Origin: an uncultured Erysipelotrichaceae bacterium
GTDB taxonomy: Bacteria > Bacillota_I > Bacilli_A > RF39 > UBA660
Assembly (NCBI GenBank): GCA_902789425.1
Contig: CADANX010000001.1
Span: forward strand, 16,206-80,205
Direction of reading: 5' to 3'
Length of the DNA stretch: 64,000 bases
This document shows positions 35,638-35,705 of the stretch, piece after piece (the stretch's first letter is position 1; every line of letters starts with the position of its first letter). A program made the position numbers and the translations under genes. The notes under the pieces were generated by a model that saw nothing but the letters and a program-made list of their open reading frames with translations, was not told the origin of the DNA and did not search any database.

Positions 35638-35705
35638 TGTTCCACGTGAAACATTATTTTTTTATGTTCCACGTGAAACGTTATTTAATTGTTCCACGTG
35701 AAACA
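35638..35705. repeat. array of three direct parS (ParB centromere) sites
   Basis: TGTTCCACGTGAAACA occurs at 35638-35653 and 35690-35705, and TGTTCCACGTGAAACg at 35665-35680. This matches the Bacillus parS consensus TGTTNCACGTGAAACA. The repeat periods are 27 and 25 bp. Confidence 0.85.

What the first reader, a model, noticed from the sequence alone, without database searches (positions are those of the whole stretch)
35638..35705. Three head-to-tail parS centromere sites packed into one 68-bp intergenic spacer
Directly after the tadA stop, the 15-mer TGTTCCACGTGAAAC occurs three times in the same orientation. The copies lie at 35638, 35665 and 35690, with periods of 27 and 25 bp. Copies 1 and 3 are the full 16-mer TGTTCCACGTGAAACA, and copy 2 ends in G. 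This matches every specified position of the Bacillus-type ParB/Spo0J parS consensus TGTTNCACGTGAAACA. CG dinucleotides are scarce in this genome, so three CACGTG cores in 68 bp are not chance. In the well-studied Firmicutes, parS sites are dispersed singly around the origin, often inside genes. A tandem triple in one spacer about 9.4 kb from dnaA is a different layout. It would make a very strong nucleation point for ParB spreading and SMC loading right next to the dnaX promoter region.
Basis: partly seen in the sequence, partly recalled or inferred. Interest (0 to 1): 0.65.

Follow-up and report, generated by a model that had tools for sequence, protein, structure and literature searches.

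The report
Tandem triple parS chromosomal centromere
Three copies of the ParB loading site parS sit head to tail right after tadA, about 9.5 kb from the replication origin. They are the only such sites found in this 1-Mb gut bacterium, and they are one compact example of a plasmid-style centromere array that its uncultured relatives keep at the same spot.

Summary
Three direct parS 16-mers lie at 35638, 35665 and 35690, with 0, 1 and 0 mismatches. They start on the base after the tadA stop codon. Chance expects 0.05 such matches in the window.

They are the only parS with an intact CACGTG core and full arms in the 1.03-Mb assembly (91% complete). They lie 9.4 kb from dnaA, and DnaA boxes and the GC-skew switch mark the origin there. 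The genome encodes a Spo0J-type ParB with the parS-reading residues R..G and the CTP motifs, plus ParA, SMC, ScpA and ScpB. I read the array as the chromosome's ParB loading site, its centromere.

The layout is a lineage norm. Every relative examined keeps 1-11 parS at the gyrA-tadA-dnaX junction. Of 201 family genomes, 73 hold tight pairs, and some arrays reach 11 or more copies. In long arrays the 14 specified parS bases stay nearly invariant while the spacers diverge, so each copy appears to be maintained.

The genome's only Noc-binding sites lie 570 bp upstream, and its Noc paralogue has no room for the membrane helix.

I found no paper describing this. Other agents of this scan have reported the same locus type in other genomes. 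It is a new variant of a known kind. ParB binding and any effect of copy number are untested.

The parts
35638..35653 (.). parS copy 1, TGTTCCACGTGAAACA, abutting the tadA stop codon
   Evidence: It has 0 mismatches to the consensus. This slot is invariant in 6 same-genus genomes in alignment A1.
35665..35680 (.). parS copy 2, TGTTCCACGTGAAACG, with A16G at the outermost base
   Evidence: It has 1 mismatch. In relatives the aligned slot holds either a parS or a Noc-binding site.
35690..35705 (.). parS copy 3, TGTTCCACGTGAAACA
   Evidence: It has 0 mismatches.
35637..35706 (+). The tandem array as a whole: period 27, 2.7 copies
   Evidence: Tandem Repeats Finder, score 105, 86% matches.
35227..35637 (+). 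tadA (tRNA adenosine deaminase). Its stop codon touches parS copy 1.
   Evidence: Pfam dCMP_cyt_deam_1, E 9e-25. A GGAGG ribosome-binding site and an ATG at 35227 are read from the sequence.
35737..35765 (+). Predicted dnaX promoter (TTTATA, 17 nt, TG-n-TATAAT), 32 bp downstream of copy 3
   Evidence: Consensus scan, 10 of 12 with TG. The extended -10 is conserved in 6 same-genus genomes. It is a prediction only.
35784..37445 (+). dnaX (clamp-loader tau/gamma subunit)
   Evidence: Pfam DNA_pol3_delta2, E 5e-47.
35037..35066 (.). Two abutting Noc-binding sites: TATTTCCCGGGAAATA, then TATTTCCTGGGAAATA. They start 3 nt after the gyrA stop and lie 570 bp upstream of the parS array.
   Evidence: They are the only NBS at up to 2 mismatches, and contain the only CCCGGG hexamer, in the assembled genome. 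The slot is conserved in same-genus genomes.
35128..35223 (+). Small SRP RNA, lying between the NBS pair and tadA
   Evidence: Rfam RF00169, 54.9 bits against a gathering score of 40. A promoter-like site lies at 35102-35130.
12018..13079 (-). Noc-type ParB paralogue (P0001, 353 aa), just downstream of rsmG. It is the presumed reader of the NBS pair, not of parS.
   Evidence: Its best solved relatives are Noc: 7ng0 at 218 bits against Spo0J at 166 bits. It carries Q, K, N, R at the four specificity positions. The frame is open for only 359 aa, which leaves no room for the N-terminal membrane helix.
25950..26124 (.). DnaA-box cluster upstream of dnaA, marking oriC
   Evidence: Six boxes at up to 1 mismatch lie between 25950 and 26124, two of them perfect. 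The GC skew changes sign at about 22-24 kb.
41198..41213 (+). Isolated parS half-site, AGATACACGTGAAACA, inside an ORF 5.5 kb downstream
   Evidence: It has 2 mismatches, with the right arm and core perfect and the left arm degenerate. Its function is doubtful.

Best explanation
The three 16-mers are the chromosome's parS centromere, where the Spo0J-type ParB (P0002) loads. P0002 is encoded with ParA about 79 kb away, on the same contig but outside the window. By analogy with studied ParB proteins, each site would bind a ParB dimer and trigger CTP-dependent closure into a sliding clamp. The clamps would then spread over the origin-proximal DNA. The resulting complex would be moved by ParA and would load SMC-ScpAB. 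No other full parS was found in the assembly, so this 68-bp array would be the only loading point. Three sites in tandem would raise the loading rate, or give redundancy, at that single point. Shown here: the sequence match, its uniqueness in the assembly, its closeness to the origin, the presence of the cognate proteins with the right specificity residues, conservation of the locus, and conservation of individual copies in relatives. Inferred: ParB binding, clamp loading, SMC recruitment and any benefit of three copies.
For: All three sites match the consensus exactly or nearly, far above chance. No other site with an intact core and both arms exists in the 1.03-Mb assembly. The array lies 9.4 kb from dnaA, beside the DnaA-box cluster and the GC-skew switch. 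ParB P0002 scores best against B. subtilis Spo0J (6sdk, 197 bits, against Noc at 150). It has GERR and ENLQRE CTP motifs, R and G at the two positions that are invariant in parS readers, and an N-terminal LGKGLE motif (Jalal 2020, PMC7383237). ParA carries the KGGVGKT Walker A motif. SMC, ScpA and ScpB are present. Across 41 relatives, the three genomes with no ParB match have no parS with an intact core. In all 27 family loci that held tadA with a neighbouring gene, the parS lie in the gyrA-tadA spacer, the tadA-dnaX spacer or both. Copy 1 is invariant in six same-genus genomes. In eight long arrays from relatives, pairwise diversity is 0.00-0.04 at the 14 specified parS bases. It is 0.00-0.28 in the spacers (0.05-0.28 in seven of the eight) and 0.23-0.50 at the tolerated positions 5 and 12 in six of the eight.
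Against: There are no binding data, and the organism is an uncultured MAG. The assembly is 91% complete in 22 contigs, so further parS could lie in gaps. One parS is enough for segregation in several model species (PMC7333895; PMC4368675), so three copies need not add function. Spacing of 25-27 bp leaves only 9-11 bp between sites, and whether three dimers fit at once is unknown. parAB is not next to the array. Within-array conservation could also come from gene conversion.
Confidence: 0.85

Rival explanations
1. Only one site matters, probably the conserved copy 1. Copies 2 and 3 are neutral products of replication slippage of a unit of about 26 bp. They neither help nor harm.
For: Copy number and spacing vary freely among close relatives: 1-6 sites in the tadA-dnaX spacer within the genus, with spacings of 25-250 bp. 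The spacers within the window's array are similar to each other, which suggests a recent duplication. A single parS suffices in model species.
Against: In older arrays of relatives the spacers have diverged while every parS copy stays intact. All but three of the family loci examined keep two or more sites at this junction. Tight pairs occur in 36% of 201 family genomes, against about 4.5% of the other families of the class.
Confidence: 0.2
2. The array acts mainly on transcription. Copy 1 forms the tadA terminator hairpin, or ParB bound at the array insulates or tunes the dnaX promoter 32 bp downstream.
For: Copy 1 with its flanks can fold into a 13-pair hairpin whose 3' arm ends in a run of U. 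The 101-nt stretch folds at -25.1 kcal/mol with z = -4.6. The array ends 32 bp before a conserved extended -10 promoter.
Against: The stem is almost all A-U, and the terminator scan finds nothing in 34900-35900. The low folding energy is what any set of repeated palindromes gives. In other genera the arrays lie in the gyrA-tadA spacer at varied distances from promoters. That fits a position-tolerant loading site better than a promoter element.
Confidence: 0.1
3. The sites are read by a protein other than ParB, either the Noc-type paralogue or an unrelated factor that recognises CACGTG.
For: A second ParB-family protein is encoded 22.5 kb away, and its own sites lie 570 bp from the array.
Against: The paralogue carries the NBS-type residues Q, K, R, and perfect NBS sites exist for it. 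The full 16-bp parS, not merely the CACGTG core, is conserved. parS presence tracks ParB presence.
Confidence: 0.03

Closest known systems
Chromosomal ParABS centromeres of Firmicutes (Bacillus subtilis Spo0J-parS-Soj with SMC loading)
   Same: The 16-bp consensus is the same and the sites are near the origin. The ParB is Spo0J-type, with best solved match 6sdk and GERR and ENLQRE motifs. ParA, SMC, ScpA and ScpB are present.
   Different: The model species have several single sites spread over the origin domain, often inside genes (established knowledge; PMC5450999). Here all the sites found lie in one 68-bp run at 25-27 bp spacing, in a non-coding spacer. parAB lies 79 kb away, not next to rsmG/noc.
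F-plasmid sopC centromere (12 direct 43-bp repeats, each with a 16-bp inverted repeat bound by SopB; PMC3177203)
   Same: The architecture is the same: direct tandem repeats of a short unit, each carrying one 16-bp palindromic ParB-family site. Relatives even show 42-43-bp periods with up to 11 copies.
   Different: This array is on a chromosome and is not adjacent to its par operon. The motif is the chromosomal parS, not the SopB site. There are only three copies here, with a shorter 25-27-bp period.
Clustered origin-proximal chromosomal parS of other phyla (e.g. the four oriC-proximal sites of Pseudomonas aeruginosa, PMC4368675; 20-23 sites in Streptomyces coelicolor and Listeria innocua, PMC7333895)
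   Same: Several parS sites are concentrated near oriC. It is an open question why copy number varies when one site suffices.
   Different: From my own knowledge, not checked here, those clusters are spread over kilobases to hundreds of kilobases and are not head-to-tail repeats. Here the sites are separated by 9-11 bp.
Noc-NBS nucleoid occlusion system of B. subtilis (PMC8429893, PMC4331003)
   Same: The neighbouring NBS pair matches the published 16-bp NBS consensus exactly. The paralogue scores best against solved Noc structures and carries Q, K, R specificity residues.
   Different: In B. subtilis the NBS are 'scattered around the chromosome' (abstract of PMC4331003), and Noc needs an N-terminal amphipathic helix. 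Here there are two sites in the whole genome, next to parS, and the protein has no room for that helix.

Membership tests
Chromosomal parS (ParB/Spo0J centromere site) | 16-bp palindrome matching TGTTNCACGTGAAACA | tested here: met
   The three copies have 0, 1 and 0 mismatches. The C at position 5 is a documented tolerated variant (PMC5450999).
Chromosomal parS (ParB/Spo0J centromere site) | Location in the origin-proximal domain | tested here: met
   The array is 9.4 kb from the dnaA start, with a DnaA-box cluster at 25950-26124 and a GC-skew switch at 22-24 kb.
Chromosomal parS (ParB/Spo0J centromere site) | A cognate ParB with an HTH domain carrying the parS-specific residues (R173 and G201 in Caulobacter numbering) and the CTP-binding motifs | tested here: met
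   P0002 aligns GKSR and SMGH with the same residues of Spo0J in 6sdk, and GERR and ENLQRE are present. The rule comes from PMC7383237.
Chromosomal parS (ParB/Spo0J centromere site) | A ParA partner and the N-terminal ParA-activating motif in ParB | tested here: met
   ParA (AAA_31, E 3e-67, KGGVGKT) lies directly upstream of parB. P0002 starts with ...ALGKGLEQLL. That this motif activates ParA is from my own knowledge.
Chromosomal parS (ParB/Spo0J centromere site) | Specific binding and CTP-dependent loading of ParB at the site | not testable with these tools
   This needs EMSA, bio-layer interferometry, ChIP or clamp cross-linking.
Plasmid-type tandem centromere array (sopC-like) | Direct tandem repeats, each carrying one inverted-repeat ParB-family site | tested here: met
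   Tandem Repeats Finder gives period 27 and 2.7 copies. Relatives have up to 11 assembled copies.
Plasmid-type tandem centromere array (sopC-like) | Lies on a plasmid, next to its own parAB operon | tested here: not met
   The array sits in the chromosomal core between tadA and dnaX, and parAB is 79 kb away on the same contig.
Rho-independent terminator | A G+C-rich stem-loop followed by a run of U | tested here: not met
   The scan finds no terminator-like site. The possible hairpin is A-U rich and the U run is part of its stem.
Noc-NBS nucleoid occlusion (for the neighbouring NBS pair and P0001) | NBS consensus sites and a Noc with Q/K/K/R specificity residues | tested here: met
   A perfect TATTTCCCGGGAAATA lies at 35037, with a 1-mismatch copy beside it. 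P0001 has Q, K, N, R, which is three of the four.
Noc-NBS nucleoid occlusion (for the neighbouring NBS pair and P0001) | An N-terminal membrane-targeting amphipathic helix, and many NBS scattered over the chromosome | tested here: not met
   P0001 residue 8 aligns to residue 26 of Geobacillus Noc, and the frame opens only 6 codons further upstream. There are two NBS in the genome. The median is 2 per genome in 121 family genomes.

The most novel reading that the evidence does not exclude
The gyrA-SRP RNA-tadA-dnaX junction is a two-protein centromere hub shared by a whole family of uncultured reduced-genome Bacilli. ParB loads at parS arrays. An anchor-less Noc paralogue loads at the few NBS placed among or beside them. 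Here that is 2 NBS 570 bp from 3 parS; in relatives the two sites strictly alternate in units of 66-80 bp. Under this reading Noc works at the origin together with ParB, not as a chromosome-wide division guard. Sites may also switch between parS and NBS identity at the same slot, since the published 16-mer consensuses differ at two bases per half-site.
Probability: 0.4. Interest if true: 0.75.

Novelty: new variant of a known kind. Interest (0 to 1): 0.5.

Why it matters
A recent review asks why parS number varies when one site is enough, and what drives parS sites to cluster (PMC7333895). This family offers a natural series for those questions. The chromosomal locus is the same throughout, but it holds anywhere from 1 to more than 11 parS at periods of 25-80 bp, and individual copies stay intact while spacers drift. 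The window's genome is the compact extreme, with a single 68-bp loading point for a 1-Mb chromosome. It therefore gives a small natural DNA fragment for testing how site number and spacing set ParB clamp loading and SMC recruitment. The adjacent, genome-unique Noc sites add a second question: what a Noc without a membrane anchor does at a centromere.

Tried and rejected
A terminator role for copy 1 is not supported. The consensus scan found nothing, and the fold is A-U rich and is explained by the palindromes themselves.

I looked for parS next to parAB and elsewhere in the genome. The nearest candidates are one site with a broken core inside a 1005-aa ORF on contig 3, and one half-site at 41198. 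I treat both as chance or weak.

Helical phasing is not evident. Periods of tight pairs in the family run from 25 to 51 bp, most often 36-37 and 42 by eye, which is not a clear multiple of 10.5.

Literature: Livny 2007 (PMC2168934) is not held. Searches on tandem parS, on parS in Mollicutes, on RF39 and on Noc-binding sites with parS found no description of this layout. The RF39 search returned only noise from the word 'pars'.

I did not run structure or complex prediction, because no claim here depends on a protein-protein contact. I did not test whether B. subtilis itself has a parS at tadA-dnaX, because named model genomes cannot be pattern-searched with these tools.

Full report
OBSERVATION. 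TGTTCCACGTGAAACA occurs at 35638-35653 and at 35690-35705, and TGTTCCACGTGAAACG at 35665-35680. All three are on the same strand, with periods of 27 and 25 bp. Dinucleotide-preserving shuffles of the window expect 0.05 matches at up to two mismatches, and none of 100 shuffles reaches the observed count. Tandem Repeats Finder reports one array at 35637-35706, with period 27 and 2.7 copies. The tadA stop codon TAA is at 35635-35637, so copy 1 begins on the next base. The only correction concerns the spacer. It is 146 bp long (35638-35783), and the array occupies its first 68 bp. The genome is 24.5% G+C with a CpG observed/expected ratio of 0.33. It contains 19 CACGTG hexamers in 1.03 Mb, and only the three in the array carry both parS arms.

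LOCAL ANATOMY. The order of features is as follows.
- gyrA, 32563-35034.
- Two abutting Noc-binding sites, 35037-35066.
- A promoter-like site, 35102-35130.
- A small SRP RNA, 35128-35223 (Rfam RF00169, 54.9 bits).
- tadA, 35227-35637.
- The three parS, 35638-35705.
- A predicted dnaX promoter, 35737-35765, with an extended -10.
- dnaX, 35784-37445, followed by ybaB and recR.
No terminator-like site is found in 34900-35900.

POSITION RELATIVE TO THE ORIGIN. dnaA starts at 26226. Six DnaA boxes with at most one mismatch, two of them perfect, lie at 25950-26124. The GC skew changes sign between 20 and 24 kb, and gene orientation switches there too. The array is therefore about 9.5 kb, roughly 1% of the genome, to the right of oriC.

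WHOLE GENOME. The window is contig 1, bases 16206-80205, of a 22-contig assembly of 1,033,179 bp that is 91% complete. A scan at up to two mismatches finds no other site with an intact core and both arms. The nearest candidates are a site with a broken core on contig 3, inside a 1005-aa ORF, and a half-site at window 41198. So, as far as the assembly goes, this array is the only parS locus.

PROTEINS. Two ParB-family genes exist.

P0002 (298 aa) lies directly downstream of a ParA gene at contig 1 about 130-131.6 kb, which is 79 kb from the array and outside the window. Its best solved relative is B. subtilis Spo0J (6sdk, 197 bits, against Noc at about 150 bits). The alignment places its GKSR and SMGH on the same residues of Spo0J, and the GERR and ENLQRE motifs are present. 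Jalal et al. 2020 showed that R173 and G201 are the invariant parS-reading residues, and that Q173, K179, K184 and R201 define Noc/NBS specificity (PMC7383237). P0002 is therefore a predicted parS reader. ParA has the KGGVGKT Walker A motif. SMC, ScpA and ScpB are all present.

P0001 (353 aa, window 12018-13079, minus strand, just downstream of rsmG) scores best against solved Noc structures (7ng0, 218 bits, against Spo0J at 166). It has Q, K, N, R at the four specificity positions. It is the presumed reader of the NBS pair, not of parS.

RELATIVES. By TadA similarity the genome belongs to uncultured gut and rumen Bacilli that have been deposited under names such as 'Tenericutes bacterium' and 'Clostridium sp. 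CAG:433'.
- In a sample of 40 relatives, 37 have consensus-type parS. The sites listed for the family genomes form one tight cluster per genome.
- I annotated the fetched loci by BLAST against the window's proteins. In all 27 family loci that held tadA with a neighbouring gene, the parS lie in the gyrA-tadA spacer, the tadA-dnaX spacer or both.
- Within the genus the tadA-dnaX spacer holds 1-6 sites at spacings of 25-250 bp, and the window's 25-27 bp is the tightest. In other genera the sites sit mostly in the gyrA-tadA spacer.
- An alignment of six same-genus spacers shows that copy 1, abutting the tadA stop, is invariant. It also shows the dnaX extended -10 to be conserved.
- Tight pairs, with periods of 21-51 bp, occur in 73 of 201 family genomes, most of them from different genera. 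In the rest of the class they occur in 12 of 266 genomes.
- Some relatives carry long arrays: 11 assembled copies at 36 bp, 11 at 42 bp, and 7 at 74 bp. Several arrays run into contig ends, so they may be longer.
- The position is older than the family. Three complete genomes of another family have dnaA at base 1 and 2-3 parS, at 32-45 bp periods, directly upstream of tadA at about 8.3 kb. A genome of a third family has a pair beside tadA.
- Of the 41 genomes in the relatives sample, the three with no ParB match have no parS with an intact core.

ARE THE EXTRA COPIES MAINTAINED? The window's array is too short to test, so I used eight long arrays from relatives. Pairwise diversity among units is 0.00-0.04 at the 14 specified parS bases. 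It is 0.23-0.50 at positions 5 and 12 in six of the eight arrays; a published binding study found changes at these two positions to be tolerated (PMC5450999). It is 0.00-0.28 in the spacers, and 0.05-0.28 in seven of the eight. Each copy is thus kept intact while the DNA between copies drifts. This argues for selection on every copy, although gene conversion cannot be excluded.

MECHANISM. This section is inference from established ParB biology (PMC7333895). ParB dimers bind each parS and are stimulated to close as CTP-bound clamps. They slide off, and the site is free to load the next dimer. The accumulated clamps form the partition complex, which ParA moves and which recruits SMC-ScpAB. With a single locus for the whole chromosome, three sites should give more loading events per unit time, or redundancy against mutation. 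Copies 1 and 3 are 52 bp apart, about five helical turns, and so lie on the same face of the DNA. Copy 2 lies roughly on the opposite face, which may ease crowding. This is geometry only. The array ends 32 bp before the predicted dnaX -35 element, and an effect on dnaX expression is possible but untested.

RIVALS.
(a) The extra copies could be neutral slippage products. The free variation in number and spacing among close relatives favours this. Conservation within arrays and the family-wide enrichment argue against it.
(b) The array could serve in termination or promoter control. The hairpin is A-U rich, no terminator is called, and arrays in other genera sit at other distances from promoters.
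(c) Another protein could read the sites. The Noc-type paralogue has NBS-type residues and its own perfect sites.

THE NEIGHBOURING NOC SITES. TATTTCCCGGGAAATA at 35037-35052 equals the published NBS consensus (PMC7383237). A one-mismatch copy follows, overlapping it by two bases. These are the only NBS at up to two mismatches, and they contain the only CCCGGG, in the assembly. Perfect NBS cores occur in 105 of the 120 other family genomes sampled. Counting the window's genome, the median is 2 per genome, 119 of 121 genomes have five or fewer, and the maximum is 20. In the relatives examined they lie inside or within a few kilobases of the parS cluster. Two relatives have strictly alternating parS/NBS units of 66 and about 79 bp. 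In B. subtilis, by contrast, the NBS are scattered around the chromosome, and Noc needs an N-terminal amphipathic helix to bind the membrane (PMC4331003 abstract; PMC8429893). P0001's residue 8 aligns with residue 26 of Geobacillus Noc, and its frame opens only six codons further upstream. The helix therefore has no room. In alignment A1 the slot of the window's parS copy 2 is aligned with an NBS in three relatives. The two published 16-mer consensuses differ at two bases per half-site, so this could reflect a switch of identity, or it could only reflect motif similarity.

COMPARISON WITH KNOWN SYSTEMS AND NOVELTY. The sites are ordinary in sequence and in predicted reader, so this is a member of the chromosomal ParABS kind. 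The layout is what differs. Head-to-tail repeats of a 16-bp site are the hallmark of plasmid centromeres such as sopC, which has 12 repeats of 43 bp (PMC3177203). Chromosomal parS are described as dispersed in the origin domain (PMC5450999). Six full-text searches found no description of tandem chromosomal parS arrays at tadA-dnaX, nor of parS/NBS co-clustering.

This scan's own earlier notes report the same type of locus in many other genomes of this group, and the anchor-less Noc as well. I reached the same picture from my own searches before reading those notes. They are AI notes and are not independent evidence.

I rate this a new variant of a known kind. Interest is moderate for the parS triple alone, and higher if the two-protein reading holds.

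Noticed in passing
window 35037-35066: Two abutting Noc-binding sites, one perfect and one with a single mismatch, lie directly after gyrA. They are the only NBS, and contain the only CCCGGG hexamer, in the 1.03-Mb assembly. The slot is conserved in same-genus genomes.
   Followed up: yes
window 12018-13079 (-): This Noc-type ParB paralogue has Q, K, N, R specificity residues. It has no room for the N-terminal membrane helix and carries an extra low-complexity stretch of about 140 aa before the C-terminal domain. Paralogue frames in relatives range from 313 to 622 aa.
   Followed up: partly
G000 contig 1, about 129994-131647 (outside the window; locus L006): parA-parB are not next to rsmG/noc as in B. 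subtilis. They lie 88 kb from dnaA and are followed by an MscS-type channel gene. No parS lies near them.
   Followed up: partly
window 41198-41213: An isolated parS half-site, with a perfect core and right arm, lies inside the ORF 41073-41912, 5.5 kb from the array.
   Followed up: no
alignment A1 (window 35600-35800 against L041, L045, L048, L049, L035): The slot of parS copy 2 is aligned with a perfect NBS in three same-genus genomes and with a parS in another. This may reflect switching between parS and NBS identity at one position, or only motif similarity.
   Followed up: partly
L037:2653 and 2746; L039:2652, 2706 and 2754; L047:4712 and 4814: In three same-genus genomes every parS is the symmetric variant TGTTCCACGTGGAACA. 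Two or three of the copies lie inside the dnaX coding region.
   Followed up: no
L071 (G061:C1:88900-90147) and L072 (G017:C24:15700-16106): These are strictly alternating parS/NBS tandem arrays. One has 12 parS and 13 NBS at a period of about 79 bp and runs to the contig end. The other has 3 of each at 66 bp.
   Followed up: partly
L058, L059, L060 (G469, G386, G432; complete genomes of another family): With dnaA at base 1, 2-3 perfect parS at 32-45 bp periods lie directly upstream of tadA at about 8.3 kb. No NBS is present. The tadA-flanking position of parS is therefore older than the window's family.
   Followed up: partly
window 24103-24591: A 162-aa ORF with a Phage_YunG-like domain (E 2e-10) sits between two Mur-ligase genes. 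These separate the rnpA side from the DnaA-box cluster and dnaA.
   Followed up: no
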